From an uncultured Oscillospiraceae bacterium (GTDB lineage: Bacteria; Bacillota; Clostridia; Oscillospirales; Acutalibacteraceae): DNA of 64,000 nt. Positions 6,725 through 53,645 of this stretch are shown here, piece after piece (within the stretch, counting starts at the first letter, position 1; each line of letters opens with the position of its first letter). The stretch spans positions 5,491 through 69,490 of the forward strand of contig UQFM01000002.1 in the NCBI GenBank assembly GCA_900540295.1, given 5' to 3'. A program made the translations under genes and the position numbers. The notes under the pieces are model-generated. The model was not told where the DNA came from and did no database searches. It saw nothing but the letters and a program-made list of their open reading frames with translations.

Positions 6725-7035
6725 AAGCTTGTCATTCTGCGCGTTCGCGAAGAATCGCACACGGCACGGAGTAAATCTGATTCTCGGTAGGGCGCGGGCT
6801 TGCTCGCGCCGCAGAATTTCATTAGATTTTTCGGACGAACACAGTTTGCCCCTGCGGGATTGGGATGTGTCTTTGGATTGTGCGAATTTCGCGGGCGATT
6901 TGTGAATCGCCCCTACACAGTCGGCGTGTTGCCGTTGGGGTGTACGATTTTTTTACGGGCGCGCAATGCACGCCCCTACGGGTTTGTCCGTTTGCGGGTC
7001 GCTGGGGATACGGCTGCGCGAAATTTTATCGGATT
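6725..7035. repeat. REP-like repeat cluster R1 (module A at 6731-6760 plus several hairpin-CTAC units)
   Basis: Contains TGTCATTCTGCGCGTTCGCGAAGAATC, GGGCGATTtgtgAATCGCCCCTAC and GGGCGCGCAATGCACGCCCCTACGGG. Members of the same family recur at eight other loci. Confidence 0.8.
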
Positions 7036-7041
7036 TCGCTT

Positions 7042-7068
7042 CCGCAACCGTTAGTTGCGGCTTTTTTT
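7042..7068 (+). terminator. rho-independent terminator immediately after repeat cluster R1
   Basis: CCGCAACC-gtta-GTTGCGG followed by CTTTTTTT. Confidence 0.6.
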
Positions 7069-7182
7069 GCTCTGCAAACCAAAAGCGGTTGTATAAATTT
7101 GTGAAAAAGCGTAAGATTTGAATATAGGCAAAGCACGATAAATATACTGCCGTCGCTGTGCGGCGAAAAGGAGCGTTTTCGG

Positions 7183-7854
7183 ATGGGTTACTTAGACAAA
7201 ATTAAATTGGCGGACTATTCGCGTGCAGAGGATTGGCTGAATTCCATTTCCCATATGGTCGGCGGCGGACTTTCGGTATTGGCGCTGTTGCTGTGTCTGA
7301 TTCGGGCGATTGTCGCACGGCGGTGGGATTATGCGGTTTTAAGCATCATTTACGGACTGACGATGATTGCGATGTATTCCTGCTCCTCAGTCTATCACGC
7401 ACTGCGCCCGAACCGCGGAAAAAAAGCAATGCGTCTGGTCGACCACGCAATGATTTACCCGATGATTGCAGGCACAATTACGCCGTTTGCCGTTTTGGTT
7501 ATCGTACCGCAAAACGCTGTGCTGGGCTGGGTGCTTACGGCGGTCGCATGGGTGACGGTTGCGGCGGCTGTGCCCATCACGCTGACGCTGTTCAACAAAA
7601 CAAAGGTTACACAGATGATATTGTATTTGGCGCTCGGCTGGATGATTATCGTTGCGGTCAAAACCCTTTGGGAATGCTTTGACCGCACAGGCACAATCCT
7701 GATGATTGCAGGCGGTGTGGCATATACACTCGGTGCGGTTATATACGGTATCGGCGCAAAGAAAAAATATTTTCACAGTGTGTTCCATTTCTTCGTTTTG
7801 CTCGGCTCGGTTCTGCATTTCTTTTCTTTATATTTATATGTATTTGTAAAATAA
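7183..7854 (+). CDS. hemolysin III family channel protein (PAQR/YqfA)
   Basis: 223 aa with 7 TM helices. Typical motifs SxxxH.. and HxxVLxGxxxHF. Confidence 0.8.
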
Positions 7855-7863
7855 GAAAACAGT

Positions 7864-7979
7864 TGACAAGACTTGACAAATCTGTTAAAATACCATTTGC
7901 CGCATATTGGGGGCGTGCCGAAAGGCACACAAAGCGCATGCGCCCCGCAGTAGCGAGTCTATATAAGGTAGGTTTAAAC
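7864..7979 (+). promoter_or_regulatory. sigma-A promoter plus ribosomal protein L21 leader
   Basis: TTGACA (7864-7869), 17 nt, TAAAAT (7887-7892). A structured leader follows (GGGGCGTGCCGAAAGGCACACAAAGCGCATGCGCCCC) ahead of rplU. Confidence 0.6.
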
Positions 7980-8291
7980 ATGTACGCAGTAATCGAAACC
8001 GGCGGCAAGCAGTATAAGGTTCAGCCCGGCGATGTGATTTACATCGAAAAGCTTGCAGTCGAAGAAAACACAGATGTCACCTTTGACAAGGTCATCGCAG
8101 TCGGTGCAGACGACGGTATTAAGGTCGGCGCACCCTATGTAGAGGGCGCAACCGTGACCGCCAAAGCTCTGAAAAACGGCAAAGGCAAAAAGATCGTTGT
8201 GTTCACTTACAAAGCAAAGAAAAACGAGAAGCGCAAAAAAGGCCATCGTCAGCCCTACACAAAGGTTGAGATTGCCGCTATCAACGCGTAA
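7980..8291 (+). CDS. rplU: 50S ribosomal protein L21
   Basis: [25 protein letters not shown]... The internal Met of ORF 7863..8291 is used as the start. Confidence 0.9.
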
Positions 8292-8609
8292 ATGATTTTT
8301 GCAGTTTGCAGTTTCGGCGAACACGGCGCGGCGGGATTTACCGTGCAGGGGCATTCGGGCAGTGCCGAAGCGGGCGAGGATATCGTCTGTGCGGCAGTTT
8401 CCTCGGCGGTCTATATGGCGGTGAATACACTTACCGATGTGCTGATGCTCACACCCGAAACGGAAGTACGCGACGGATTTTTATCTGTGCGGCTTCTGAA
8501 ACAAGAGACCGAAGCTGCGCTCCCGATTTTAAAAGGGCTTGCCCTGCATCTTCGGGGGCTTCAGGAAGAATATCCCGATTATATCCAATTTGAAAGAGGT
8601 GCACTGTAA
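8292..8609 (+). CDS. prp: ribosomal-processing cysteine protease Prp
   Basis: 105 aa between rplU and rpm[19 protein letters not shown] is typical of Prp. Confidence 0.85.
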
Positions 8610-8893
8610 TGCTTAAGATTAACATTCAGCTTTTCGCGCATAAAAAAGGTATGGGTTCGACCAAAAACGGTCGTGACTCCGAATCCAAAAGACTCGGCGT
8701 AAAGCGTGCGGACGGTCAGTTCGTTTTGGCGGGCAACATCCTCGTCAAACAGCGCGGCACGCACATTCACCCCGGCGAGAATGTAGGCAGAGGTTCCGAT
8801 GACACCCTGTTTGCGAAAATCGACGGCAAAGTGAAGTTCGAGAGAATGGGCAAAGACCGCAAAAAGGTCAGCGTCTATGCTGTTGAACAGTAA
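8609..8893 (+). CDS. rpmA: 50S ribosomal protein L27 (with Prp-cleaved N-terminal extension)
   Basis: [32 protein letters not shown]... Confidence 0.9.
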
Positions 8894-8911
8894 TTGCTGT
8901 AAAGCTTGATG

Positions 8912-8949
8912 AAAAGGACAGAGAAGCACGGCTTCTCTGTCCTTTTTTA
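8912..8949 (+). terminator. rho-independent terminator of the rplU-prp-rpmA operon
   Basis: GGACAGAGAAGC-acg-GCTTCTCTGTCC followed by TTTTTT. Confidence 0.8.
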
Positions 8950-9059
8950 TGTCGGGGGTCAATTTATGATAAAGCACAGGGGCAAATGCTTTTTTCCTGT
9001 GTTTTTATTTTCTATTCGGACACGTGCGTTATGGTTATGCAAGCAAGCCTTTTGCATAG

Positions 9060-9165: not shown

Positions 9166-9352
9166 TATTGTAGGGGGCGACGGTCTCGCCTGCCGGCTTG
9201 GTCGGTGCTTCTGCATACTTCCGTATGCAGAGGTCTCCACCGGAGACCCGCACCCCGCCCTACCGAGAATCAAATTCATCCTGTGCCATGTGAGATTCTT
9301 CGCTGACGCTCAGAATGACAAGTCTGCGCAAACTGTGTAGGGGCGGATGTCC
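9166..9352. repeat. REP-like repeat cluster R2 (module A reverse at 9292-9322)
   Basis: TGTAGGGGGCGAcggtcTCGCC..., CCCTACCGAGAATCAAATTCATCC and GAGATTCTTCGCTGACGCTCAGAATGACAAG. The same edge architecture is seen in R3. Confidence 0.8.
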
Positions 9353-9469
9353 TCGTTTGATACCATTTCAGGTAACAGATTAAACCGTTTCATTTCAAGA
9401 CTCTAATCTGTTACCCATGTCCTTACACTCCTGTTACCTTTCTTTACTCTTGACAGTCCTCATCCGCCC

Positions 9470-10537
9470 CTACGGTTCGCATATTAACTGCGTCGTTGCC
9501 GAATCCATCGCGCGCAATGCCTTTTGCGCCCATACATTCTGCGGCTCGATTTGCAAAACGAAACGGAGCCTGCCGATTAAATGCGCCGCGTACCGCTCGG
9601 CGTTCGGCACGCCGTTTTCTATAAAATCCGTTCTGTCGGCGTGCAAAATGCTGTCGGCAACACCGAATTTTAATGCGTAATAGACTTCTTGGCGCAGACC
9701 GCGCTTGTAATCGGCAGACACAGATACTTTTTCATTCACGGTAAGCCCCGTCACGCTTTGACGGGTCGCATTCGTAAAGAATTTGGTTTTGCGCTCGTTT
9801 AACACAAAGCCCATTTCGCGGAGCATTGCTTGCGCTTTTTGATAAACCGCATACAGCGGCACATCTGCCGAAAAGGTCATATCGTCACAGTAGCGCGTGT
9901 AGGCAATGCCGCGCGCGGCACACCACTTGCCGAGGTTGTCGTCAAAATTGCGCATAACCAAATTGGAAAGCGCGGGCGAAGTCGGCGCACCTTGGGGAAG
10001 CGCTTCTTCCCGACAGCAGAGGGTGGTCAGAAGCACGCCGACGGATTTCGGGAAATAGCGCGTGTGGAATGCGGCACTGTAAACCTGCCCAAAGCGGATG
10101 CTGCCGAAAAAATCCGTGATATCCAGCTTTAAAAGATAGCGTTTGCCGACGTGCGGGGCGGCATTTGCGCGCAACGAACTGCCGGGTGCATAAGCCGTTG
10201 CATACGGCGAAATCGGCAGTTTTTGCAGAATCTGCCGCAGAATACGGACTTGCAGTGCGCGAAGCTCTGCGTTCGGCACATACAGTCGGCGCACGCCGCC
10301 GTTCTTTTTGCGGATTGTCACCGCGCGGTACGCATCGTCTGCGTGATTCCAATAATTGTACAGCTTGCGTCTGCCGATTTTTAAGCAAGCCGCAGTTTGG
10401 TAGGTATCATACAGAAATGGCAGGGGCTGTACTAAGGTATAATCCAATACCATTTCGGTTGCCGCCGCAATGCCGAATTTCCGCACAAATGCCATATCGC
10501 ATTCCGAAAATCGGACGGTATCTCCCAGCACTTGCAT
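9470..10537 (-). CDS. retron-type reverse transcriptase
   Basis: 355 aa. RT motifs: RKKNGGVRRL (domain 1); NAAPH (retron-specific NAxxH) in ANAAPHVGKRYLLKLDITDFFGSI; LPQGAPTSPALSNLVM; YCDD catalytic box; VTG in RQSVTGLTVN. RBS TGGAGTGA sits 6 nt upstream of the ATG. Confidence 0.9.
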   Translation of the reverse strand: MQVLGDTVRFSECDMAFVRKFGIAAATEMVLDYTLVQPLPFLYDTYQTAACLKIGRRKLYNYWNHADDAYRAVTIRKKNGGVRRLYVPNAELRALQVRILRQILQKLPISPYATAYAPGSSLRANAAPHVGKRYLLKLDITDFFGSIRFGQVYSAAFHTRYFPKSVGVLLTTLCCREEALPQGAPTSPALSNLVMRNFDDNLGKWCAARGIAYTRYCDDMTFSADVPLYAVYQKAQAMLREMGFVLNERKTKFFTNATRQSVTGLTVNEKVSVSADYKRGLRQEVYYALKFGVADSILHADRTDFIENGVPNAERYAAHLIGRLRFVLQIEPQNVWAQKALRAMDSATTQLICEP

Positions 10538-10562
10538 ACAAGGTCACTCCAAAAAATAAAAA

Positions 10563-10761
10563 TCCGCACTTCGCAGTACAAAATGACGCGGTAAAAGCGC
10601 AGGCGAACCCGAAAATCACGCAGTGATTGGTAGTTCGTCGGAGCGTTACCGTGCAACGTTTTTTCCGTGGGAAAAACGAGCATCGGGGATGGAAAACCAA
10701 GCGGCGACTCGCCGCTCTGCTTGAAACTGTTTTCAAGCTGTACACTACTGCAAAGTGCGGA
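10563..10761 (-). ncRNA. retron msr-msd non-coding RNA (candidate)
   Basis: A 16-bp inverted repeat a1/a2 spans 10746-10761 / 10563-10578 (TACTGCAAAGTGCGGA vs revcomp TACTGCGAAGTGCGGA) with one G-U position. A G lies immediately 3' of a1 as a candidate branch point. The 5' part has two short stem-loops (GCUUGAAA/UUUCAAGC and GCGGCG/CGCCGC). The 3' part has a long interrupted hairpin (CGGUAA..CGAAC..AAUCAC-ugc-GUGAUU..GUUCG..UUACCG). It ends 25 nt before the RT start. Confidence 0.75.
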
Positions 10762-10771
10762 ATATATACTA

Positions 10772-10800
10772 ATCATATCGGATATGTGGCGGGGTGTCAA
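10772..10800 (-). promoter_or_regulatory. consensus sigma-A promoter driving the retron ncRNA-RT transcript
   Basis: Minus strand reads TTGACA, 17 nt, TATGAT. The predicted TSS is ~4 nt upstream of a1. The -35 box lies 7 nt after the HD gene stop. Confidence 0.7.
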
Positions 10801-10807
10801 TACGGCA

Positions 10808-11395
10808 TTATTTCAATAGCCCTTTTTTGTAACACGACTCCACGGCAAACTCCACAAATGCCCAAAGCGCGGGAAGAACCTCTTTGGTCAACGCATTGCG
10901 TGCATAGACCTGTTCGCGGGTGACGGTGCGCCCTTTCCAAGAGGCACCGTCCGTATAGTAGTTTAACAGTAGGGGCTGTAAGCGGTCAATCGCGGCGGCA
11001 TACTGCGCATCGTCGGTTTCGGCTTTGTCGAATTCTTCCCATAGTGCGCGGTAGGCTTTGCCCTGCTCGTCGGGCAGGAGCGCTTCCACGCGGTCAGCGG
11101 CAAGAGCTTCGCGTGCCTGCTGTGTTTCCACAACGTCCTTGTCAAAACACGGTGTGTCGCCCGCATAGATTTCCACCAAATCGTGAACCAACAGCATACG
11201 GACGGCACGGTCAATATTGACTGTGGGCTTCGCGTATTCAGAGAGCGTGAGCGCCATCATCGCCGCGTGCCACGAGTGCGCGGCGTCGTCCTCACGGCGT
11301 GCGTTGCCGATGACCCAATTCTGCCGCAAAACAGATTTCATTTTGTCGATTTCTCGAAGGAATTCAATTTGAGAGGTTAATTTTTGACTATCCAT
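10808..11395 (-). CDS. HD-domain phosphohydrolase, YfbR-like 5'-deoxynucleotidase family
   Basis: 195 aa. AAHSWHAAMMAL and LLVHDLVEIYAGDTP match the YfbR HD motif. Co-oriented with and immediately upstream of the retron. Its 5' 105 bp is duplicated as a fragment at 9060-9165. Confidence 0.8.
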   Translation of the reverse strand: MDSQKLTSQIEFLREIDKMKSVLRQNWVIGNARREDDAAHSWHAAMMALTLSEYAKPTVNIDRAVRMLLVHDLVEIYAGDTPCFDKDVVETQQAREALAADRVEALLPDEQGKAYRALWEEFDKAETDDAQYAAAIDRLQPLLLNYYTDGASWKGRTVTREQVYARNALTKEVLPALWAFVEFAVESCYKKGLLK

Positions 11396-11437
11396 TTATA
11401 TCCGCCTTTTCTTTTGATAGTTGGTTTTCGACTATAC

Positions 11438-11690
11438 ATGTAGGGGGCGATTTTTTACATCTGCATGTACTTGCGTTTACAAACCGTAGGGGCGTGCATT
11501 GCGCGCCCGCCGAAGTCTGATGAATTTTGCGGACGGACGAGGACGTCCGTCCCTACGCGCAAATCCAATTCATTTTGTACTGTGGGCAGGACGGACAGCC
11601 ACAAGGGCTGTCCCTACGGGTTGCGAATCAAATTCACCTTGTTCTGTGTGCGATTCTTCGCTGCGCTCAGAATGACAGATTGTTCCACAT
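11438..11690. repeat. REP-like repeat cluster R3 (module A reverse at 11650-11678)
   Basis: Contains CGTAGGGGCGTGCATTGCGCGCCC, GGACGGACGAGGACGTCCGTCCCTACGCG, GGACGGACAGCCacaaGGGCTGTCCCTACGGG and GCGATTCTTCGCTGCGCTCAGAATGACAG. Confidence 0.8.
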
Positions 11691-11694
11691 TCCG

Positions 11695-14600
11695 TCAATG
11701 CACCAAATAGCCGAAAACTTCACGCAGGGTATCTAGCGGCGTTTGGCTGTCGCCGATTTTTACGGCAATGTGCTTTTTGCCGCAGTCCGCAACCGACACT
11801 CTGCCGCGCAGTGCGCCTGACAGGTTCAATACCATTGAGGTATCCATTTCGTGGACATATAAAAGCACGCTTTGTCCCTTTTGCCCGATTTCGTAAATGC
11901 CCTTTGCCGCCGCCGTGTTGCGCAGTAAGGAGATGTCAATCAGCCCCTCTACCGAGCGCGGTATTGCACCGTAGCGGTCACGAAGCTCGTCGCGCACATC
12001 TGCCGCGTCCTCTGCGGAGCGAATATCCGCGATACGGCGGTAAACGGCAAGCCTCTGCGGAATGGTGTCGATGTATTTTTCGGGAATGTGCGCATCAATT
12101 TGCATATCGATTAAGCAGTCTTTTTGCTTTAAGGGATTTTGTTCGCCCTTTTCCTCGCTGACGGCTTCGCCCAACAGCTGTAAGTACATATCATACCCGA
12201 CCGCTTCCATATGCCCGTGCTGCTGCGCGCCCAAAACATTGCCCGCCCCGCGGATTTCGAGGTCGCGCATCGCGATTTTAAAGCCCGACCCGAATTCCGT
12301 GTATTCGCGGATTGCCGACAGTCTGCGGTTCGCAATCTCCGACAACTCTTTGCCGCGCGTGAATGTGAAATAGGCACTGGCACGGCGCGCACTTCTGCCG
12401 ACGCGTCCGCGAATCTGGTGCAGCTGTGCAAGGCCCAAACGGTCCGCGTCCTCAATAATCAGCGTGTTGCAGTTGGGGACGTCCACGCCCGTTTCAATAA
12501 TCGTGGTGCATACGAGAATGTCAATATCGCCTTCCAACAGCCGCCGCCAAATATCGCCGAGTTCATCCTCTGCCATTTTGCCGTGCGCCACGGCGACGCG
12601 TGCCTCGGGAAGCAGTTCCGCGATTTCGCCTGCACGCTGGTCAATGGTTTCCACGCGGTTGTGCAGGAAATACACCTGCCCGCCGCGCCGCAGTTCTTTT
12701 TCCATCGCCTGTAACAGAATGCCCATATCGTATTCAATTACATAGGTCTGCACGGGGGAGCGGTCCTGCGGGGCTTCCTCAATGACCGACATATCACGGA
12801 TGCCCGTCATCGCCATATTGAGTGTGCGCGGAATCGGCGTTGCGGACAGCGTCAGCACGTCTACCGTGGGGAACAGTTCCTTTAATTTTTCTTTCTGCGC
12901 CACGCCGAACCGCTGTTCTTCATCCACAATGAGCAATCCCAAATCCTTGAATTTTACGTCCTTGGAGACAAGTCGGTGCGTGCCGACAATCAAATCTATA
13001 TTGCCGCATCGCAAATCTTTGAGGATTTTTTCCTGCTGACGGGCGGTGCGGAAGCGTGAAATCATTTCCGTTTCAATCGGGAAGCCCTCAAAGCGGTTTA
13101 AAATGGTGCGGTAATGCTGTAATGCCAAAATCGTGGTCGGCACCAAAATAGCGCATTGCTTGCCGTCCGCTACGCATTTGAATGCGGCGCGCAGAGCGAC
13201 CTCGGTTTTGCCGAAGCCTACGTCGCCGCAAAGCAGTCTGTCCATCGGGTAGCTTTTTTCCATATCGCCCTTGATTTCGTCAATCGCGCGTAGCTGGTCG
13301 GCGGTTTCCTCATAGGGGAAACGACGTTCAAAGTCACTTTGCATATCAATGTCGGGGGAGAAGGCGTACCCGGGGGCGTTTTGCCGTTTGGCGTAGAGCG
13401 CAATAAGCTGGTCTGCCATATCCTTGACCGCCGTGCGCACGCGCGAACGCGTTTTTTCCCATTCCTTGCCGCCGATGCGGTTCAATTTTACGGTGCGTCC
13501 CGTTTCCTCGTGCGGACCGATGTATTTGGAAACCAAATCCAGCTGTGTAACGGGGACATACAGCACATCGCTTTTGGCGTAACGGATTTTAATGTAATCC
13601 TTGGTGATTTTGCCGACTTCTAATTTCTGAATGCCGTCAAATACGCCGATGCCGTGCGCCGCGTGGACAACATAGTCGCCTTTATGCAGTTCGTCTAAAG
13701 AGTGCAGTCCCTGTCCCTTTTTAAACCCCGCGCGGGATTTGCGTTTCGCCTGTACGGCGGCGCGGGTATAGGTATAGACATAAAATTTTTCGTGCGGATA
13801 AGAGAATCCGTAGGAGAGCGTTCCCGAAAGCACTGTCACGCGCCCTTTCGGGAATGCGTTCGGCGTTACGGGGAAATACAGCGCGGGAATGCCCTCGGCT
13901 TCCAAATCCTCTGCGAGGGTTTTGGCGGATTTTTCCGTGCCGCCGAGCACAACGACCGTCGCATCCTTTTGCAGGATGGGCTGAATATCCTCGCAAAGTA
14001 TATCCAGCTTGCCGTTCCAGCCGGGCAGTTGTGTCGCAGTAAAGGTGACAAGGTCTTTTACAGGTGTGTCAAAGCTCCCGCGTGCAAAATTGTCAAGATA
14101 AATGACGCTGTGTTTTTCGTAGGCACGGAACAGCTCGGCAGGCGTTAGATGAAATTTATCTACACCCTTACAAAGCTGTCCTTCCTCCAAAAGTGCCTTG
14201 ATTTCTTCCTGTATCAGCTTTGCGGAGGCGTTTGCGCGCTCTTTCACATTGGCGCTTTCACAGATGAAAACAAATGTGTTTTCATCTGCATAGTCGAAAA
14301 CTGTCTGCGCACTTGAAAAAGCGAGCGGCAAGTACTTGTCGGTGGAGTTTAATTTCACACCGCTTTTCAGTCGGTCAATATCACTGAACAGTGCTTCTTT
14401 TTGCTTGGCGGCGTGCTTGCCCTTCAGTGTTTTCGAGAGGGCTTCGATTTTTTCAATCAACACGCGGTCGCTGTCAAACAGTACTTCTTTGGCAGGCATT
14501 AAAGCGAATTCCGTCAGGCGTTCGTTGCGGCGCTGAGAACGAATATCGAAGTAAGACATACTGTCTACCGTGTCGCCGAAGAACTCCACGCGCACGGGGT

Positions 14601-15165: not shown

Positions 15166-15183
15166 AGATAAGGTACTCCAATA

Positions 15184-17349: not shown

Positions 17350-17697
17350 ATTTATGTTATTTGTTTGTCATTCTGAGCGAAGCGAAGAATCTCACATCGC
17401 ACAAAGTAAATTGTACAATCGGTAGGGCGGGGAAGATTTCCCTATTAGGGAAAATGTCACAAAGTGACAAAAGGGTGATGGCGTAGCCGTAACTTGCCCC
17501 TGCCGCAACTCGGTACAAAATTTCTACTCTGCTCGGGCGCGCAATGCACGCCCCTACGTTCGGTGCGTTTCCGTAAAATTGTGCAGATTCCGCGGGCGCT
17601 TCGTGAAGCGCCCCTACGATTTTTGCGTTGCCATTAGCATTGTGCAAAATCCAACCTTGCTCGGACGGACGGGGACGTCCGTCCCTACGCGGTACAC
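17350..17697. repeat. REP-like repeat cluster R4 (module A forward at 17355-17384)
   Basis: TGTCATTCTGAGCGAAGCGAAGAATCTCAC, then GGGCGCGCAATGCACGCCCCTACG, GGGCGCTTcgtgAAGCGCCCCTACG and GGACGGACGGGGACGTCCGTCCCTACGCG. Confidence 0.8.
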
Positions 17698-18419
17698 AAC
17701 ACCAACTCCCGCAATTCTGCGCAGTCCGCTTGTGAGAATCCGTTTTCTGCCAAAATGGCGAACAAATCATTGTCCCGAAAATATTGCAGCAGCGCTTCCA
17801 TATGCGCGGGTGCGGAAGAGAGCATCGGCAGCATTTCTTCGTAATTCGGCATGGATTCCAAAATTTTATGCAGACCGTTGCGGTTGTAGGTGTTCGATAC
17901 CTCGTAATCCGCCAAAATATCCGCGTCATATGCGCCGAGGATTGTCAGCAAAACCGCCGCAAGCACGCCTGTGCGGTCCTTGCCTGCGGTACAGTGAAAA
18001 ATGACCGCGCCGTCCCGAAGTCCTGTTTTCACGGTGTGCAGTGCGGTGCACAGCAAATGCGGTGTTTTGCGCACCATATCGGCGTAGCATTCCGACATAC
18101 TGCGGCGAAATGCCGCGGCGGCGCCCTCGTCTAAATTGTGTATATCCAAATTTTCTTCCTGCATTGGGCAGTGGCAAAGCGCAATGCCGCTTGGCACGCG
18201 GTCAGGAAAGGTTTCCGTTTCGGAAAGACTGCGCAAATCCACTACGGTGCGCACGCCTTTTTGGTACAATACCTGCCATTCTTCGGCGTCCAGTGCGCTT
18301 AACGCGTCTGCGCGGAACAGGCGGTTCCACCGCACCACCCTGCCGCTTTCGGTGACAATGCCGCCCATATCGCGCACATTAAACGCGTGCGGCAAAATCA
18401 GATGTTTGATGCAGTCCAT
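17685..18419 (-). CDS. protein-tyrosine phosphatase family protein (CX5R)
   Basis: HCTAGKDRTG active-site loop. Confidence 0.8.
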   Translation of the reverse strand: MDCIKHLILPHAFNVRDMGGIVTESGRVVRWNRLFRADALSALDAEEWQVLYQKGVRTVVDLRSLSETETFPDRVPSGIALCHCPMQEENLDIHNLDEGAAAAFRRSMSECYADMVRKTPHLLCTALHTVKTGLRDGAVIFHCTAGKDRTGVLAAVLLTILGAYDADILADYEVSNTYNRNGLHKILESMPNYEEMLPMLSSAPAHMEALLQYFRDNDLFAILAENGFSQADCAELRELVLCTA

Positions 18420-18431: not shown

Positions 18432-20276
18432 TTAATTTTCGATAAAGTACTTTTCATACCAAAGAATGAAGCAGTAGACAGACCAGACCTTTTTCATATT
18501 GTGCGCCGTACCCGCCTTATGGTCGTTCAACAGCTTTAAAATGGAAGCGGTGTTAAAGAATTGTTTCGCTGTGTCGCTTTCGAATTTCTCTTTCACCTGT
18601 GTGTAAAACTCGTCGCGTTTGAGCCAGTCGTTGAGCGGCGTTAAAAAGCCGGTTTTGCGCATTTTTGCGGTTTTTTCGGGCAGCTGCTTTGCCGCCGCCC
18701 CGCGCAGTGCCAATTTGGTGGTCTCCTTGCTGACACGGTAACGCGACGGAATCTGCAATGCGACCTTCAGCATTTCGCGGTCTAAAAACGGCACGCGCAG
18801 TTCTAAGGAGTTCGCCATACTCATACGGTCGGCTTTGACCAAAATATCCTGCACAAGCCAGGTGCGGATGTCCGCATATTGCATTTTTGTGATGTCGTCC
18901 TCGCCCTGTACCTCGTCAAAATACGGTTTCGTAAAGACGGACGGGTCGGGTGCGTTTACGGGTGTTTTAAGAATTTTATTGACTTCGCTGTGGTTAAACA
19001 CATAGTTGTTGCGGATATAGCGTTCCTCAATCGGATGACTGCCGCGTGTTAAAAAGCGCTTGCCGTGGAAATTCGGCAGCTTTGAAGCGACAGATGCCGC
19101 CGCACGGCGAAGTCCCTGCGGCAATTTCATATAGTTTTCAAAATCCAGTGGTTCGCGGTAATAGTGGTAGCCGCCGAACAGCTCGTCTGCACCCTCGCCC
19201 GAAAGCACCACCTTGACCTGCTCGCTGGCAAGGCGCGCCAAGAAATACAGCGCAATCGCCGACGGGTTGGGGAGCGGCTCATCCATATAATACTGCACCT
19301 GCGGCGTAATATTAAAATACTCCTCGGCGGTGATTTTCTTCGTGTAATTCCGCACGCCCTCGGTTTTTGCAAATTCTTCTGCGGCGGCAAGCTCGGAATA
19401 TTTCTCTTCCGCATAGCCTACGGAGAAGGTTTTTACATCGTTGTGCTTTGCCATTTCGTGTACAACGTAGCTCGAATCCACGCCGCTCGACAGGAAACAG
19501 CCGACCTCAACGTCCGCTATCGCGTGCGCTGTGGTAGAGCCTTTAAAGGTTTCGTCAATCCGTGTTTCCCACTCTGCGAGGGATTTTTCGTCGTCAATAT
19601 CGAATTTCGGCGTGAAATACCGTGCGGAGGAAAATTCGCCGTTCTGCCATGTAAAGTACGCACCCGGCTCCATTTTATAGACGTTTTTAAACATCGTCTC
19701 GGTGTCGGGCAGATATTCAAAGCATAAATATTCGGGCAGTCGCTTTTCGTTCAATTCCTTTTTGAATAAAGGATTCGACAGAAAAGACTTGATTTCCGAC
19801 CCGAACAGGAAATTGCCCTCGTTTAAGTAGTAGAAAAACGGCTTGATACCGAAAATATCGCGCGCGCCGAACAGTTTTTTTGCCTGCTTATCCCAAATGA
19901 CAAAGGCAAACATCCCGCGAAGCCGCGGAAGCAAATCCTTGCCCCATTGCTCGTAGCCGTGCAAAAGCACTTCGGAATCCGTTTCGGTTTTGAAGATGTG
20001 ACCCAAGGTCAAAAGCTCTTCGCGAAGCGGGCGGTAGTTGTATATTTCGCCGTTGAACACGAGAACCTTCGAGCCGTCCTCATTGAGAATCGGCTGACTG
20101 CCGCCGTCCAAATCGATGATGCTCAAACGGCGAAAGCCTAAGGAAACGTCGCCGTCCACGTAATAATCGTCCTGGTCGGGGCCGCGGTGGATGATTCTGT
20201 CCGCCATCGCCTTAATGATTTTTTCGTTTTCCGCAATATTTTCGGTACTGTTTACATATCCGACAAATCCACACAT
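18432..20276 (-). CDS. asnB: asparagine synthase (glutamine-hydrolysing) family amidotransferase
   Basis: MCGFVGYV N-terminal nucleophile. 614 aa with the PP-loop SGGVDSS. Confidence 0.9.
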   Translation of the reverse strand: MCGFVGYVNSTENIAENEKIIKAMADRIIHRGPDQDDYYVDGDVSLGFRRLSIIDLDGGSQPILNEDGSKVLVFNGEIYNYRPLREELLTLGHIFKTETDSEVLLHGYEQWGKDLLPRLRGMFAFVIWDKQAKKLFGARDIFGIKPFFYYLNEGNFLFGSEIKSFLSNPLFKKELNEKRLPEYLCFEYLPDTETMFKNVYKMEPGAYFTWQNGEFSSARYFTPKFDIDDEKSLAEWETRIDETFKGSTTAHAIADVEVGCFLSSGVDSSYVVHEMAKHNDVKTFSVGYAEEKYSELAAAEEFAKTEGVRNYTKKITAEEYFNITPQVQYYMDEPLPNPSAIALYFLARLASEQVKVVLSGEGADELFGGYHYYREPLDFENYMKLPQGLRRAAASVASKLPNFHGKRFLTRGSHPIEERYIRNNYVFNHSEVNKILKTPVNAPDPSVFTKPYFDEVQGEDDITKMQYADIRTWLVQDILVKADRMSMANSLELRVPFLDREMLKVALQIPSRYRVSKETTKLALRGAAAKQLPEKTAKMRKTGFLTPLNDWLKRDEFYTQVKEKFESDTAKQFFNTASILKLLNDHKAGTAHNMKKVWSVYCFILWYEKYFIEN

Positions 20277-20291
20277 GGTGCTTACCTCGTT

Positions 20292-27810: not shown

Positions 27811-27832
27811 CCGCGTACCAATACAAACCAGT

Positions 27833-28197
27833 GGCAATGCACACCCCGTAGGGGGCGACGACTCGGCGCCCCGCAAAAATCTGCACAAACCGTAGGGGCG
27901 AATGCCTCCCTTGTGAAAGGGAGGTGGCACGGCGAAGCCGTGACGGAGGGATTCCCACCCGCGAAATCCGTGCAAACCAACGGCGGGGCACACACCCGTA
28001 GGGGCGTGCATTGCGCGCCCGCACATTTCGCGCAAATTGACGGTTGTGTACAAACCCCGTAGGGGCGAACTGTGTTCGCCCGATGAAATTTGCTGAAACT
28101 TTGCGGGTCGTCGCGGACGCCGACCCCTACAATTGTGCATCCAATTTTAATTGTTCTGTGTAAGAGTCTTCGCCTAAGGGGCTCAGAATGACAAATT
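27833..28197. repeat. REP-like repeat cluster R5 (module A reverse at 28164-28196)
   Basis: Four or more CGTAGGGGCG-hairpin units (GGGCGAACtgtgTTCGCCC, GGGCGTGCATTGCGCGCCC, GGGTCGTCgcggaCGCCGACCCCTAC) followed by GAGTCTTCGCCTAAGGGGCTCAGAATGACAAAT. Confidence 0.8.
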
Positions 28198-42784: not shown

Positions 42785-42860
42785 CATCAGATTCCACGGG
42801 CGCGCAATGCACGCTCCTACGGGGTTGGCACAGATTTGTCATTCTGAGCCGATAGGCGAA
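42785..42860. repeat. REP-like repeat cluster R6 (module A forward at 42827-42858)
   Basis: GGGCGCGCAATGCACGCTCCTACGGGG plus TGTCATTCTGAGCCGATAGGCGAAGAATCTCC. Confidence 0.8.
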
Positions 42861-42885
42861 GAATCTCCCGCAGAATGAAGTGAAG

Positions 42886-44243: not shown

Positions 44244-44368
44244 AGTAGGGGCGAACTGCCCGCCGAAATCTGATGAAATCCTGCGGCGGGGGCAAGATCT
44301 CGCCCTACCGAGAATCAAATCCACTCTGTGTCATGTGCGATTCTTCGCCTACGGCTCAGAATGACAGA
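44244..44368. repeat. REP-like repeat cluster R7 (module A reverse at 44337-44367)
   Basis: GTAGGGGCGAACTGCCCGCC..., CCCTACCGAGAATCAAATCCAC and GCGATTCTTCGCCTACGGCTCAGAATGACAG. Confidence 0.8.
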
Positions 44369-46187: not shown

Positions 46188-46282
46188 ATGTTTTCTCCTA
46201 TGGATTTATTCTTGGTATTTATGTGGAATTTCATCGGATTTGAGCGGGCGAACACAATTTGCCCATACAGGTTTTGTACGGG

Positions 46283-46362
46283 ATTGTCATTCTGAGCGCA
46301 GCGAAGAATCGCCCTCGGCACAAGGCAAAATTGATTCGAGCGTAGGGCGCAGGCTTGCCGGC
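46283..46362. repeat. REP-like repeat cluster R8 (module A forward at 46285-46313)
   Basis: TGTCATTCTGAGCGCAGCGAAGAATCGCC plus GCGTAGGGCGCAGGCTTGCC. Confidence 0.8.
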
Positions 46363-46378
46363 ACCGTTCGGCTTGCCT

Positions 46379-49317: not shown

Positions 49318-49340
49318 ACATCTGAAAAGGGGTACCGATT

Positions 49341-50426: not shown

Positions 50427-50503
50427 AATTCCCCTGATGATTCTGTATACCCGCAACGCCCTGTATGTATTTACAGGGCGTTTTTTCAAAGGAGAGAGAC
50501 TGT

Positions 50504-51865: not shown

Positions 51866-51904
51866 ACTCTGTGCCATATCCCATGCAGGGGCGCAAAAAA
51901 TATT

Positions 51905-52080
51905 TCTTGACAAATATACAAAAATATAGTATCCTATTTGAGCAATAAAGAAGAATCGTTCCGTTCTCACCTGTGCGTTGCGTACAAAACAGGTCAATAC
52001 CGTTTGAATTTCGTTATTTACGGAGTTTTTGTGTATTCGCGTGAACGTGTTCTTCGTTCACGCTTTTTTAATTTTGTAAG
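51905..52080 (+). promoter_or_regulatory. promoter plus L20-type leader/attenuator of the infC-rpmI-rplT operon
   Basis: TTGACA promoter, then a structured leader ending in the terminator-like hairpin CGCGTGAACG-tgttctt-CGTTCACGC plus TTTTTT just before infC. Confidence 0.55.
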
Positions 52081-52082
52081 GA

Positions 52083-52604
52083 GTGATCGCTATCAGTACC
52101 AGAGAAATGCAGATCAATGAGCAAATCCGCGACCGCGAAGTCCGCGTCGTAAGCGATTCGGGCGAGCAGCTGGGCATTATGTCGTCAAGGGATGCACGCC
52201 GCTTGGCAGAGGAAAAGAACCTCGACCTCGTGAAAATTGCGCCGATGGCAAAGCCGCCCGTTTGCAAAGTCATGGATTACGGCAAATACCGTTTTGAACA
52301 GGCAAAACGCGAAAAAGAAGCGCGAAAAAATCAAAAAACGGTGGAAATCAAAGAGATTCGTCTGTCTTTGAACATTGATACGCATGACTTTGAGACCAAA
52401 GCGAGACATGCCGAGAAATTTTTAAAGGCGGGCAACAAGGTTAAGGTTTCTATCCGCTTCCGCGGACGCGAAATGGCGCATACGAATTTAGGGCTTGACT
52501 CTATGGCGAAGTTTGCCGAGGCATGCAAAGACTTTTCTTCCATTGAAAAGCCGGCAAAGCTGGAGGGCAGACAGATGCTGATGTTCTTAGCGCCGTTAAA
52601 ATAA
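52083..52604 (+). CDS. infC: translation initiation factor IF-3
   Basis: INEQIRDREVRVVSDSGEQLGI... The exact non-canonical start codon is uncertain: a GTG abuts the RBS and ATC candidates lie nearby. Confidence 0.8.
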   Translation: MIAISTREMQINEQIRDREVRVVSDSGEQLGIMSSRDARRLAEEKNLDLVKIAPMAKPPVCKVMDYGKYRFEQAKREKEARKNQKTVEIKEIRLSLNIDTHDFETKARHAEKFLKAGNKVKVSIRFRGREMAHTNLGLDSMAKFAEACKDFSSIEKPAKLEGRQMLMFLAPLK

Positions 52605-52631
52605 GTTATCATTATTCAGGAGGAATTTGAA

Positions 52632-52829
52632 ATGCCTAAACTCAAAACCCATTCCGGAGCTAAAAAACGCTTCAAGCTGTCGAAAAACGGCAAGCCGATT
52701 CGTGCACATGCCAACAAATCTCACATTCTGACGAAAAAGAGCACCAAGAGAAAAAGAAATCTTCGCAAAACAGCTGTTGCGGATACAACCAACCAGAAGC
52801 AGATTAAACGCTTGATTCCTTATAAATAA
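52632..52829 (+). CDS. rpmI: 50S ribosomal protein L35
   Basis: [21 protein letters not shown]... Confidence 0.9.
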
Positions 52830-52876
52830 ACCGCAGGCTGTTCAGCCGCAAAAGAAATATTCGGAGGTAACTTACC

Positions 52877-53233
52877 ATGGCACGTGTTAAAGGCGCAATG
52901 ATGACGCGCAAAAGAAGAAATAAAACCCTGAAACTGGCAAAGGGCTACTACGGTTCCAAGAGCCGTTTGTTCAAGACCGCAAAGCAGGCGGTTATGAAGT
53001 CCGGTCAGTATGCATACATCGGCAGAAAGCAGAAAAAGAGAGATTTCAGAAGACTTTGGATTACAAGAATCTCTGCGGCTTGCAAAATGAACGGTATGAA
53101 TTATTCTTCGTTCATCAACGGTCTCAAGAAAGCGGGCGTTGACCTCAACCGCAAAATGCTTTCCGAAATCGCGATTGCAGACCCCGCCGCTTTCACCGCG
53201 CTTACAGAGCAGGCAAAAGCAGCACTGAAATAA
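52877..53233 (+). CDS. rplT: 50S ribosomal protein L20
   Basis: [26 protein letters not shown]... Confidence 0.9.
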
Positions 53234-53240
53234 GCAAAAG

Positions 53241-53280
53241 CCACGTCCCGCACTGTGTCGGGGCGTGGTTTGTGTTTTCC
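53241..53280 (+). terminator. rho-independent terminator after rplT
   Basis: CCACGTCCCG-cactgtgt-CGGGGCGTGG followed by TTTGTGTTTT. Confidence 0.7.
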
Positions 53281-53321
53281 CTCGTTACGAAGTTGTGCAG
53301 ATGTGCAGGGCTGAATTTTAT

Positions 53322-53645
53322 GTAACCCCGTAGGGGCGGATGCCTTCATCCGCCCGCCCGCAATCTGATGAAACTTCGCGGACGGACAAGGATGTCCGTC
53401 CCTACGCGTAGGATGAAAATATAGCACAACCTGTAAGGGGCGGGTTATTCCCCTGACAGGGGAAATGTCTGCAAAGCAGACAAAAGGGTTCCCGTTTTCG
53501 GAGAAAATCCACGCCCGCCCGAGTGCAGGTGGATTTCACACAAAATCGGTGGTGATACACAAACCGCGTAGGGGCGAACTGTGTTCGCCCGCCGAAGTCT
53601 GCTATAATTTTACGGAACAACACAGAGGTTGTTCCCTACACCGTA
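53322..53645. repeat. REP-like repeat cluster R9 (hairpin-CTAC units only, no module A)
   Basis: CCGTAGGGGCGGATGCCTTCATCCGCCC, GGACGGACAAGGATGTCCGTCCCTACGCGTAGG, CGTAGGGGCGAACTGTGTTCGCCC and GGAACAACacagagGTTGTTCCCTACACCG. Confidence 0.8.

What the first reader, a model, noticed from the sequence alone, without database searches (positions are those of the whole stretch)
6725..53645. Pervasive REP-like element family: GC hairpins with co-varying stems abutting a conserved CTAC(G) tetranucleotide, clustered BIME-like at nine or more intergenic sites
At R1-R9 (6.7, 9.2, 11.5, 17.5, 28.0, 42.8, 44.3, 46.3 and 53.4 kb) I see 20 or more copies of a unit made of a GC-rich hairpin immediately followed by CTAC(G), or by (C)GTAG preceding the hairpin in the opposite orientation. 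The stem sequence differs between copies but always compensates, which implies selection on structure rather than sequence. Examples: GGGCGAAC-tgtg-GTTCGCCC, GGGCGATT-tgtg-AATCGCCC, GGGCGCTT-cgtg-AAGCGCCC, GGACGGACG-agg-ACGTCCGTCC, GGACAGCC-acaa-GGGCTGTCC and GGAACAAC-acagag-GTTGTTCC. A palindrome plus a conserved GTAG/CTAC tetranucleotide is exactly the organisation of the REP elements recognised by RAYT (TnpA-REP, HuH-Y1) transposases. Those elements are characterised mainly in Proteobacteria. The units occur in both orientations and in tandem clusters with variable linkers, several of which contain GAAATCTGATGAAAyyTTGCGG. A density of ~9 clusters in 64 kb is very high.
Basis: seen in the sequence. 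Interest (0 to 1): 0.7.

Follow-up and report, generated by a model that had tools for sequence, protein, structure and literature searches.

The report
REP/BIME repeat family in gut Clostridia
The GC-rich hairpins with a GTAG/CTAC foot are real REP elements, the small palindromic repeats handled by RAYT tyrosine transposases; they form BIME-like mosaics in a gut Clostridia genome, so this is a known kind of element in a host group where it has hardly been described.

Summary
Thirteen perfect-stem hairpin+CTAC units compare with 0.62 expected from shuffles. Stems co-vary.

The units sit in a regular mosaic. REPs alternate in orientation. A conserved 22-nt short linker (…TCTGATGAAA…) joins them tail to tail. 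A ~75-nt long linker carrying a second conserved hairpin, the "box" TTGTCATTCTGAGC-loop-GCGAAGAATC, joins them head to head.

The window comes from a gut Clostridia MAG. Strains ~99% identical differ by exactly one 139-bp mosaic period and by a 36-nt unit.

The unit GTAGGGGCGAACTGTGTTCGCCC is identical to a hairpin lying in frame (VGANCVRP) inside RayT-type Y1/HUH transposase genes of Clostridia. A second in-frame hairpin ends in CTAC (…APT). These proteins keep the HUH and Tyr motifs and the GTAG-contacting residues of E. coli TnpA-REP (4ER8).

Stem feet rich in G-C, "double-foot" REPs and REPs in frame inside the gene are already described for RAYT subclass 2.4 (Quentin 2018).

The RAYT of this species was not located in the ~86 kb I could read.

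Verdict: new member of a known kind. Interest is moderate.

The parts
3549..3767 (-). It is a degenerate mosaic: a box-like hairpin at 3730-3755, a two-hairpin 'module 3' at 3657-3704, and a hairpin without a foot at 3597-3616 followed by a sequence resembling the short linker.
6731..6979 (.). Cluster R1, between divergent genes (ZapA on the - strand, HlyIII on the +). Box at 6731-6756 (+). Units at 6787-6810 (+), 6834-6860 (-, degenerate foot), 6893-6916 (-) and 6957-6979 (-). Short linker at 6809-6830.
   Evidence: a 36-nt unit indel in strain L134 just to the right
9170..9475 (.). Cluster R2, downstream of the retron RT gene. Double-foot REP at 9170-9262. Box at 9294-9319 (-). Double-foot REP at 9337-9475, whose arms GGGCGGATG/CATCCGCCC enclose a ~100-nt insert flanked by TCCTC. 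Its CTAC supplies the TAG stop codon of the RT gene.
11440..11676 (.). Cluster R3, downstream of mfd. Degenerate unit at 11440-11470 (+). Doublet made of 11486-11508 (+), short linker 11509-11530 and 11531-11556 (-). Unit at 11593-11617 (-). Box at 11652-11676 (-).
17367..17688 (.). Cluster R4. Box at 17367-17391 (+). Long-loop unit at 17422-17505 (+), with module 3 at 17437-17493. Three same-direction units at 17535-17557, 17594-17617 and 17663-17688 (-). The last foot supplies the TAG stop codon of gene 17685-18419 (-).
27848..28192 (.). Cluster R5. Units at 27848-27872 (+), 27892-27970 (+, long loop, module 3 at 27904-27955) and 27998-28020 (+). Doublet made of 28059-28081 (+), short linker 28082-28104 and 28105-28130 (-). 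Box at 28164-28192 (-).
42800..42865 (.). Cluster R6. One unit at 42800-42822 (-, foot preceded by TC), then the junction and the box at 42838-42865 (+).
44245..44365 (-). Cluster R7, one complete mosaic period on the minus strand. Box at 44339-44365, spacer, GTAG unit at 44283-44308, short linker at 44265-44286, and unit-CTAC at 44245-44265.
46243..46365 (.). Cluster R8. Unit at 46243-46268 (-, foot ATAC), box at 46286-46310 (+), unit at 46342-46365 (+). Strains L126, L129 and L131 carry one extra 139-bp period inserted at about 46283.
53330..53639 (.). Cluster R9, lying after the intrinsic terminator of rplT (53238-53271). Doublet made of 53330-53355 (+), short linker and 53380-53405 (-). 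Long-loop unit at 53436-53520 (+, module 3 at 53445-53509). Doublet made of 53568-53590 (+), short linker and 53614-53639 (-). No box.

Best explanation
These are GTAG-footed repetitive extragenic palindromes (REPs) arranged in BIME-like mosaics in the chromosome of a gut Clostridia species.

Anatomy. Each unit is a 20-26-nt GC-rich hairpin. Its stem starts with GG(G/A) directly after a 5' GTAG, which reads CTAC on the other strand. Units alternate in orientation and are joined by two conserved linker types:
- a 22-nt short linker (GCCGAAATCTGATGAAAyyTTGC) joins them tail to tail;
- a ~75-nt long linker, carrying the second conserved hairpin TTGTCATTCTGAGC-loop-GCGAAGAATC, joins them head to head.
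One period is therefore about 140-145 nt.

Proposed mechanism (inferred from the E. coli TnpA-REP and IS200/IS605 paradigm). When the DNA is single-stranded, for instance on the lagging-strand template, each unit folds into its hairpin. A RayT-type HUH/Y1 transposase binds the hairpin, reads the GTAG foot through a conserved W-Q...E-H...R patch, and cleaves and rejoins next to it. This copies, deletes or rearranges units and whole periods.

Shown here:
- the anatomy, the co-variation and the intergenic dispersal;
- unit and period indels between strains;
- sequence identity of the unit with hairpins embedded in RayT genes of Clostridia;
- conservation of the catalytic and GTAG-contact residues in those RayT proteins.

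Inferred, not shown:
- that a RayT of this species acts on these units;
- the cleavage chemistry;
- any host-level role, such as mRNA 3' protection or binding of nucleoid proteins.
For: 1. Real, non-random, intergenic. 13 strict units against 0.62 in shuffles. 29 catalogued units in 10 of 22 gaps. Three more clusters lie in the 9.6 kb left of the window, including tandem 145-nt periods.

2. Hairpins fold as single-stranded DNA. The doublets give -24.7 kcal/mol (z -4.7) and -15.8 kcal/mol (z -2.5). Stems co-vary.

3. Mosaic grammar. An alignment of six periods shows an invariant box core and GTAGGG. The short linker is 4 versus 0 by chance.

4. Both orientations relative to transcription, one cluster between divergent genes, no T-runs, and placement after a true terminator. 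This fits a DNA-level element.

5. Dynamics. A 139-bp period is present or absent at R8, and a 36-nt unit is present or absent at R1, between strains ~99% identical.

6. Link to RAYT.
- E. coli RayT detects three ORFs in loci fetched by the REP pattern, and in each the REP lies in frame inside the gene.
- NCBIfam REP_Tyr_transpos scores E 2e-18 and 4e-19 on two of them; Pfam Y1_Tnp scores 25.9 bits against a cutoff of 23 on one.
- The family has 2705 and 1841 members in the two searches. JGI and NCBI name members 'REP element-mobilizing transposase RayT'.
- 101 of the 120 top hits encode VGANCVRP, which is the window unit at 28059 and 53568.
- GRAMHAPT, which is the window's commonest unit, occurs in 7 RAYTs.
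- The window units are 100% identical over 25-26 nt to the REP in and next to RAYT genes.
- In 33 of 37 distinct in-frame octapeptides, the paired residues can be encoded by mutually reverse-complementary codons. Shuffles give a mean of 12.3 and a maximum of 23.

7. The only PDB relative is 4ER8 TnpA-REP (E 5.8e-7). HUH, Tyr, and W94/Q95/E100/H101/R104 are conserved (the roles of these residues are from PMC6006769).

8. The literature describes exactly these traits for RAYT subclass 2.4: three G-C pairs at the stem foot, double-foot REPs, and in-frame REPs inside tnpA-REP.
Against: No RAYT gene was found in the ~86 kb of this species that I could read: the window, 4 kb to the right and 9.6 kb to the left. 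Its presence in the genome is untested.

The RAYT-bearing relatives I inspected (L140, L207, L198) have few REPs in their 8-10 kb neighbourhoods. Possession of this RAYT therefore does not by itself predict a REP-rich genome.

Both strain indels are bounded by short direct repeats, 14 nt (TTGTCATTCTGAGC) and 11 nt (TGTCCGTTTGC). They could arise by replication slippage or recombination rather than by RAYT action.

The box hairpin and the ~55-nt 'module 3' have no counterpart in described REP systems, and their roles are unknown.

Assignment of the clostridial RAYTs to subclass 2.4 rests on motif signatures, not on the authors' profiles.
Confidence: 0.8

Rival explanations
1. The hairpins are primarily RNA-level elements, either transcription terminators or 3' stabilisers of mRNA, kept by selection for that role. 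The GTAG foot would be incidental, for example a built-in TAG stop codon.
For: Most clusters lie downstream of genes in tandem arrays. Two REP feet supply the TAG stop codons of genes 9470-10537 and 17685-18419. In E. coli, REPs are known to protect upstream mRNA from 3' exonucleases (established knowledge). This role could coexist with the main explanation.
Against: Units and boxes occur in both orientations relative to the flanking genes, and R1 lies between divergent genes. No unit is followed by a T-run, and none was flagged by the terminator scan. The rplT operon has its own canonical terminator upstream of R9. This reading does not explain why the same 23-mer lies in frame inside transposase genes across hundreds of genomes.
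Confidence: 0.1
2. The ~140-nt composite (box, spacer, two hairpins) is a MITE-like non-autonomous element moved by a transposase unrelated to RAYT. Alternatively it is only a tandem repeat that expands and contracts by slippage, with no transposase involved.
For: The polymorphic unit at R8 is the whole 139-bp composite, not a single hairpin. It is bounded by a 14-nt direct repeat. Tandem 145-nt periods occur left of the window. Nine of the ten clusters carry exactly one box. The box was seen next to REPs in only 2 of the 120 loci from other genomes (L003, L080).
Against: The composite has no terminal inverted repeats and no target-site duplication. The two adjacent periods at R8 differ in their box loop and spacer sequences (alignment), so the indel is not a recent tandem duplication. 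Single units also come and go. The units carry the GTAG foot and are identical to the REPs embedded in RAYT genes, which a RAYT-independent model leaves unexplained.
Confidence: 0.07
3. The clusters encode structured non-coding RNAs, such as a ribozyme or riboswitch-like family. The CUGAUGA in the short linker would mark a hammerhead-type core.
For: There are co-varying stems, a conserved CTGATGA in the linker, and a co-varying two-hairpin module in some loops.
Against: Rfam gave no match over the clusters at the gathering threshold or at E up to 1; the only hit was an L20 leader elsewhere. Orientation is mixed relative to transcription. Folding the whole composite gives no consistent higher-order structure.
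Confidence: 0.03

Closest known systems
REPs of RAYT (TnpA-Y1) subclass 2.4, which equals Bertels group 4 (Quentin et al. 2018, PMC6006769; Bertels et al. 2017, PMC5581495)
   Same: A GT[AG]G foot, with stem feet rich in G-C pairs. 'Double-foot' GTAG...CTAC forms are present. REPs are inserted in frame inside the transposase gene. The motif signature is N-H-u-H, W-Q and Y-I-x-x-N-P, and the proteins are ~175-200 aa.
   Different: Host and abundance differ. That subclass is described from Cyanobacteria, Bacteroidetes, Chlorobia, Caldilineae and 'various phyla', with only modestly repeated flanking 16-mers. Here the host is a gut Clostridia species, with about one unit per 2.2 kb. In this clade the two in-gene REPs sit at fixed positions on either side of the HUH motif. 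At least one member travels on a ~1.27-kb cassette with inverted ends. The box-containing long linker is not described.
E. coli REP/BIME with TnpA-REP (RayT/YafM, subclass 2.2; structure 4ER8)
   Same: An imperfect GC-rich palindrome plus GTAG/CTAC. REPs alternate in orientation and are separated by two classes of conserved linker, like the L and S motifs of BIMEs. BIME periods vary in copy number. The HUH, Tyr and GTAG-contact residues are conserved.
   Different: The stems here are shorter and perfect, without the characteristic bulge. The linker sequences are unrelated. The long linker carries its own hairpin rather than an IHF site. The E. coli rayT gene is flanked by REPs, whereas these RAYT genes contain them. 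By phmmer, protein similarity is confined to the C-terminal half of the core (E about 1e-7 to 1e-10).
REPINs of Pseudomonas (Bertels and Rainey)
   Same: Two inverted REPs separated by a short spacer act as the repeated unit, and are associated with a RAYT.
   Different: In a REPIN the two REPs are complementary to each other and form one long hairpin. Here each REP is its own hairpin, and the two partners have different stems, for example GGGCGAAC... paired with GGACGGACG.... REPIN RAYTs are single-copy and vertically inherited, whereas one clostridial RAYT is found, with an identical protein sequence, in at least 5 genomic contexts.
TIRYT: RAYT genes flanked by long terminal inverted repeats (Di Nocera et al. 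2013, PMC3733652)
   Same: The RAYT genes in L113 and in the P0272 cassette are bounded by inverted repeats rather than by REPs.
   Different: TIRYTs were described as not associated with GTAG REPs. Most belong to subclass 2.1, which has C-terminal HTH domains. These proteins are short and carry GTAG REPs inside the gene.
IS200/IS605 subterminal hairpins
   Same: Single-stranded DNA hairpins are recognised by a Y1 HUH enzyme, with a nearby tetranucleotide guiding cleavage.
   Different: No transposase is carried between the hairpins in the window. The copies are far smaller and more numerous. Pfam Y1_Tnp and NCBIfam IS200 scores are marginal.

Membership tests
GTAG-tagged REP elements | Short (20-40 nt) GC-rich imperfect palindrome able to form a stem-loop | tested here: met
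   24 simple units of 21-27 nt with 8-9-bp stems. They fold as single-stranded DNA.
GTAG-tagged REP elements | Conserved unpaired GT[AG]G tetranucleotide directly at the 5' foot of the stem | tested here: met
   GTAG abuts the stem in 17 strictly scored units. 27 of the 33 GTAGGG/CCCTAC hexamers in the window are in the clusters. A few feet are degenerate.
GTAG-tagged REP elements | Many copies dispersed in extragenic space | tested here: met
   29 units in 10 of 22 intergenic gaps of the window, none in the long ORFs taken as genes. There are 3 further clusters in the adjoining 9.6 kb. A whole-genome count could not be made.
GTAG-tagged REP elements | Occurrence in inverted pairs or BIME-type mosaics with conserved linkers | tested here: met
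   Six doublets with a conserved 22-nt linker. Long linker with the box. Tandem 145-nt periods.
GTAG-tagged REP elements | A cognate RAYT gene in the same genome | not testable with these tools
   No RAYT in ~86 kb of this species.
GTAG-tagged REP elements | The same REP sequence physically associated with a RAYT gene (a REPtron, or the REP inside the gene) | tested here: met
   This was seen in other Clostridia. The REP is in frame in L011, L113, L115, L140, L198 and L207, and in L198 also directly 3' of the stop codon. It is 100% identical over 25-26 nt to window units.
GTAG-tagged REP elements | RAYT binds and cleaves the REP as single-stranded DNA | not testable with these tools
   This needs biochemistry. 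Only the conservation of HUH, Tyr and the GTAG-contact residues could be checked.
RAYT subclass 2.4 (Quentin 2018) | Motifs N-H-[IFV]-H, W-Q, Y-I-x-N-N-P; median length about 194 aa | tested here: inconclusive
   Observed: NH[LI]H, IWQ, and YIFENP / YIENNP / YMYNNP, in proteins of 175-200 aa. This is a close fit to the published signature, but the authors' HMMs were not available, and L at the u position is outside their consensus.
RAYT subclass 2.4 (Quentin 2018) | REPs with three G-C pairs at the stem foot, double-foot REPs, and REPs in frame inside tnpA-REP | tested here: met
   The foot is GGG/CCC in about half of the stems, and GGA/TCC or other in the rest. Two double-foot units. In-frame REPs in 225 of 240 homologues.
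REPIN | Two inverted REPs complementary to each other forming one long hairpin; single-copy, vertically inherited RAYT | tested here: not met
   The partners of a doublet have different stems and fold separately. An identical RAYT cassette occurs in at least 5 gene contexts.
Intrinsic terminator | GC-rich hairpin followed by a T-run on the transcribed strand | tested here: not met
   None of the REP hairpins in 42-54.5 kb was flagged. The rplT terminator is a separate hairpin at 53238-53271.
Hammerhead ribozyme or other Rfam RNA | Match to a curated covariance model | tested here: not met
   No match over any cluster at the gathering threshold or at E up to 1.
MITE | Terminal inverted repeats and a target-site duplication | tested here: not met
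   The 139-bp polymorphic period has neither. It is bounded by the 14-nt start of the next box.

The most novel reading that the evidence does not exclude
The pair of REP hairpins embedded in frame on either side of the HUH motif of these clostridial RayT genes is not a passive insertion. It is the conserved 'home copy' of the family.

On this reading, the segment GTAG-hairpin...hairpin-CTAC inside the gene is itself a substrate of the enzyme. The intergenic doublets would be internally deleted derivatives of that segment, much as MITEs derive from transposons. The gene would spread between gut lineages and phyla on a small cassette with inverted ends that lands in the loops of hairpins.

Hints in favour:
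- The two in-gene hairpins are at fixed positions in 225 of 240 homologues, and they co-vary at the codon level.
- They have the same relative orientation as the intergenic doublets.
- In L207, an isolated REP-to-REP internal fragment of a RayT gene starts exactly at a GTAG that also terminates a full-length paralogue.
- The P0272 cassette sits inside terminator-like palindromes; the flanking palindrome was read directly at three sites (L197, L198, L199).
- The exact 23-mer is found from Clostridia to Coriobacteriia, Campylobacterota, Cyanobacteria and viral contigs.
- Some REP loops in the window hold nested inserts.

Weak point: the resemblance between the short linker (TCTGATGAA) and the coding sequence upstream of the second in-gene hairpin (TCTGCCGATGAA, CTGCTGATGAAAAC) is short and out of register.
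Probability: 0.2. Interest if true: 0.6.

Novelty: new member of a known kind. Interest (0 to 1): 0.4.

Why it matters
REP/RAYT systems are treated as mainly proteobacterial. The three surveys I read do not report GTAG REPs, or this type of RAYT, in Firmicutes. A further literature search found nothing on REP or RAYT in gut Clostridia.

Practical consequences:
- Here the family occupies about half of the larger intergenic gaps of a prevalent gut species.
- It varies between strains that are ~99% identical, so it is a ready source of strain markers.
- It is a likely cause of assembly breaks. Many RAYT clusters sit on contigs of about 1 kb, and an N-gap falls inside a tandem array.
- It likely produces spurious short ORFs. 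ORFs such as 6800-7054, 11465-11710 and 27755-28024 lie inside clusters.

The clostridial RayT clade, with its co-varying hairpins written into the reading frame, is also a convenient system for asking how a protein tolerates, or exploits, its own DNA substrate inside its gene. None of this changes the known picture of what REPs are.

Tried and rejected
- Hammerhead idea. It was prompted by CTGATGA in the linker. Two Rfam scans gave nothing, and the composite shows no consistent fold.

- Terminator idea. The units have no T-runs, and R9 has a separate true terminator.

- Literature search for the literal sequences GTCATTCTGAGCG, GTAGGGGCG and CGCCCCTAC. It returned only unrelated primer hits.

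- Finding the RAYT of the window's own species. All routes failed:
  - phmmer and hmmsearch over the window and all strain loci;
  - looking for NCBI accessions from the same MAG among RAYT clusters;
  - look-ups of prevalent RAYTs, which turned out to belong to other species: P0188 in GCA_964533825.1, P0272 in other metagenomes, P0410 in GCA_023412215.1;
  - a second homologue search with the window's commonest unit (GRAMHAPT) written into the query. It found 7 RAYTs carrying it, but their AT-rich composition does not fit a 51% GC genome;

- Orthologous sites in distant relatives. L002 and L004 have an mfd at 40-45% amino-acid identity, too divergent to say whether cluster positions are conserved.

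- A regex census of 'module 3'. It was too strict and missed the window's own copies. I did not build a covariance model for it.

- Homology between the short linker and RAYT coding sequence. It was judged too short and out of register to claim.

- Whole-composite secondary structure. The MFE structures differ between copies.

Full report
**Observation.** Reading the nine sites shows GC-rich hairpins that abut CTAC, or GTAG on the other strand, as described.

A strict scan asked for a perfect stem of at least 6 bp, a loop of 3-12 nt, and the stem ending exactly at CTAC. It finds 13 units. One hundred dinucleotide-preserving shuffles of the window give a mean of 0.62 and never more than 3.

Allowing one mismatch and adding the long forms gives 29 units:
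- 24 simple units;
- 3 whose apical loop holds a ~55-nt two-hairpin insert;
- 2 'double-foot' units that begin with GTAG and end with CTAC.

Of the 33 GTAGGG/CCCTAC hexamers in the window, 27 lie in the ~3.4 kb of clusters. Ten of the 22 intergenic gaps of at least 100 bp carry these motifs.

Stem positions 1-2 are invariant G-C. Positions 3-8 each take 2-4 different Watson-Crick pair types among 17 distinct stems. The linker motif is also real: 4 matches with up to 3 mismatches against 0 in 100 shuffles.

**Anatomy.** The clusters are not loose collections of hairpins. They have a grammar.

A second conserved hairpin, the 'box' TTGTCATTCTGAGC-loop-GCGAAGAATC, occurs eight times. It has tandem G.A pairs and an inner co-varying mini-hairpin. 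It is followed by a conserved ~30-nt spacer (...CACAnGGCACAGnGTnAATTTGATTCTCG) and then a GTAG unit. A hairpin-CTAC unit is joined to the next box by a conserved junction (GGTTTGCGCAGAT).

REPs therefore alternate in orientation, with two linker classes:
- a 22-nt short linker (GCCGAAATCTGATGAAAyyTTGC) between the tails;
- a ~75-nt long linker containing the box between the feet.

Units in the same direction are separated by a third linker of 36-45 nt ending in ...TTGTGCrrATTyCGC. One period is 139-145 nt. Tandem periods of 145 nt are visible just left of the window. This is the logic of E. coli BIMEs, with unrelated sequences.

The hairpins fold as single-stranded DNA. The doublets give -24.7 kcal/mol (z -4.7) and -15.8 kcal/mol (z -2.5). 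The whole composite gives no consistent larger fold.

**Context.** Proteins of the window that are identical to public entries are labelled 'MAG... [Lachnospiraceae bacterium]' by NCBI. A sub-threshold L20-leader match precedes infC-rpmI-rplT. The source is therefore a gut Clostridia species, common in public assemblies.

Units and boxes occur in both orientations relative to the flanking genes. R1 lies between divergent genes. No unit has a T-run or is flagged as a terminator, and R9 follows the real rplT terminator. Rfam finds nothing over the clusters at either threshold. All of this fits a DNA-level element better than an RNA gene.

**Dispersal and dynamics.** Most are Oscillospiraceae, Ruminococcus, Acutalibacteraceae and other Clostridia. 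Some are MAGs labelled Coriobacteriia, Helicobacteraceae, Zoogloeaceae, Omnitrophota or cyanobacteria. It also occurs in 49 IMG/VR contigs. Those 120 loci hold 390 strictly scored units.

Ten strains ~99% identical to the window were fetched through the TopA protein. Three of them carry one extra 139-bp period at R8: box, spacer, GTAG hairpin, short linker, hairpin-CTAC, junction. It sits immediately before the resident box. Another strain has an extra 36-nt unit in R1. The SMC-FtsY gap just outside the window differs between strains by whole modules. The 9.6 kb left of the window contains three more clusters.

The family is therefore dispersed, not confined to the window, and turning over within the species. 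Both indels are bounded by short direct repeats of 14 and 11 nt, so slippage or recombination cannot be excluded as the proximate cause.

**Link to RAYT.** I fetched E. coli rayT and searched all ORFs of the loci with it. It hit three ORFs (E 4e-8 to 4e-10) in loci that had been retrieved only because they contain the REP pattern.

In all three the REP is inside the gene, in frame:
- GTAGGGGCGAACTGTGTTCGCCC encodes VGANCVRP, before the HUH motif (MPNHLHI).
- A second hairpin ending in CCCCTAC encodes G-R-x-x-x-A-P-T, just after the HUH motif.

Family assignment:
- Two of the proteins match NCBIfam REP_Tyr_transpos at E 2e-18 and 4e-19. These scores are below the equivalog cutoff.
- One passes Pfam Y1_Tnp.
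- The only PDB relative of the L113 protein is 4ER8, E. coli TnpA-REP. HUH, the catalytic Tyr, and the W94/Q95/E100/H101/R104 patch that contacts GTAG are all conserved (the roles of these residues are from PMC6006769).

Family size and content:
- The family has 2705 and 1841 members in two searches. JGI and NCBI name members 'REP element-mobilizing transposase RayT'.
- 101 of the 120 closest homologues keep VGANCVRP.
- In the more diverse Ruminococcus set the octapeptides are hypervariable. In 33 of 37 variants the paired residues can still be encoded by mutually reverse-complementary codons. Shuffles give a mean of 12.3 and a maximum of 23.
- The window's commonest unit, GGGCGCGCAATGCACGCCCCTAC, corresponds to GRAMHAPT, which occurs in seven RAYTs.
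- The only similarity between a RAYT cassette and the window is the REP itself, 100% over 25-26 nt.

**Comparison with the literature.** Quentin et al. 2018 describe RAYT subclass 2.4, which equals Bertels group 4. Its motifs are NH[IFV]H, WQ and YIxNNP. Its REPs have a stem foot of three G-C pairs, include 'double-foot' forms, and, uniquely, lie in frame inside tnpA-REP. It is found in Cyanobacteria, Bacteroidetes and various phyla. That matches what I see, so the striking in-gene hairpins are not new.

Host range in the surveys:
- Di Nocera et al. 2013 list GTAG REPs in Proteobacteria, Cyanobacteria, Chloroflexi and PVC, with no Firmicutes.
- Bertels et al. 2017 place group 4 in Cyanobacteria, Chlorobia and Caldilineae, and only group 1 in Clostridia.
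- A search for REP or RAYT work in Clostridia found none.

The finding is thus a new member, in a new host group and at high density. It has its own mosaic grammar, in particular the box-containing long linker.

**What remains open.**
- I could not locate the RAYT gene of this species.
- RAYT-bearing relatives that I inspected are not REP-rich locally.
- One clostridial RAYT (P0272), together with a 104-aa ORF, sits on a ~1.27-kb cassette that is 97-98% identical in at least five gene contexts. The cassette has imperfect inverted ends. Where I read the flanks (L197, L198, L199) it sits in the loop of a terminator-like palindrome. This clade therefore looks more mobile than the single-copy RAYTs of REPIN systems.
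- In L207 an isolated REP-to-REP internal fragment of a RAYT gene begins exactly at a GTAG that also ends a full-length paralogue.
- These hints feed the more novel reading, that the in-gene REP pair is a substrate and source of the intergenic doublets. I rate that reading at about 0.2.

**Verdict.** It is a new member of a known kind, of moderate interest.

Noticed in passing
window 9470-10807 (- strand): A retron. The 355-aa ORF at 9470-10537 is a retron reverse transcriptase (PADLOC RT_Ec107-like, E 1e-119; RT_III-A, 3.5e-91; Pfam RVT_1). The 270-nt non-coding stretch upstream (10538-10807) folds with a long closing helix around several hairpins (-90 kcal/mol, z -3.7), like an msr-msd RNA. 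The gene upstream (10808-11395) is an HD/YfbR-like protein with no PADLOC hit.
   Followed up: partly
window 9470-9472 and 17685-17687: The TAG stop codons of the retron RT gene and of the phosphatase-like gene 17685-18419 are the TAG of a REP GTAG foot. The REP begins exactly at the end of the ORF.
   Followed up: partly
window 17437-17493, 27904-27955, 53445-53509, 3657-3704 (-): 'Module 3' is a ~50-nt repeat made of two co-varying hairpins followed by a G-rich tail, for example CCTCCCTT-GTGA-AAGGGAGG T GGCACGGC-GAA-GCCGTGAC GGAGGGA. Three copies sit in the apical loop of REP hairpins and one stands alone. The copy at 27901-27953 is 94% identical to one in a Coriobacteriaceae contig (L028). 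Related copies occur in L036, L049, L080, L084 and on a viral contig, L187. Its function is unknown and it matches no Rfam family.
   Followed up: partly
window 9350-9461: The double-foot REP at 9337-9475 has identical arms to the intact REP at 53330-53355. However, it encloses a ~100-nt insert with its own inverted repeat (GGTAACAGATTA...TAATCTGTTACC). The insert is flanked by a 5-nt direct repeat, TCCTC, which suggests a small element inserted into the REP loop.
   Followed up: no
window 51942-52075 (+): A match to the ribosomal protein L20 leader (RF00558) at 45.8 bits, below the gathering score of 58.7 (E 8e-6). It lies upstream of infC-rpmI-rplT.
   Followed up: no
L124-L133, locus positions about 19685-20300 (SMC-FtsY gap, about 4 kb right of the window): A different ~105-nt tandem repeat (GCTACGCC...GCTCGCGTACCTTTGTACGCGTCACC...GGAGAAAAGGCACAC...) is present in about 1-4 copies. 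Alternative REP and box modules also occur here. Together they make this gap 303-590 bp long in strains that are ~99% identical.
   Followed up: partly
L197-L206 (cassette at L198:2447-3725); L113:5150-6560: An identical RayT protein (P0272, 175 aa) plus a 104-aa ORF of unknown function lie on a ~1.27-kb cassette. The cassette is 97-98% identical in at least 5 different gene neighbourhoods. It has imperfect inverted ends (ACTCTtAAGGACAG) and, where the flanks were read (L197, L198, L199), is inserted in the loop of a terminator-like palindrome. L113's RayT sits between ~160-bp inverted repeats.
   Followed up: partly
L207:2912-5810 (GCA_023412215.1): Two RayT paralogues lie within 3 kb. In addition, an isolated fragment corresponds to the REP-to-REP internal part of a RayT gene, including the HUH codons. 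It starts exactly at a GTAG that provides the stop codon of the full-length gene P0410.
   Followed up: partly
L148-L196 (IMG/VR contigs): The exact REP unit occurs in 49 stretches of DNA from viral contigs, up to 4 copies per stretch. None of the fetched stretches contains a RayT gene.
   Followed up: partly
L209:7336-7435: An assembly gap (a run of N) falls inside a tandem array of 145-nt mosaic periods. Many RayT clusters are known only from contigs of about 1 kb. These repeats evidently break short-read assemblies.
   Followed up: no
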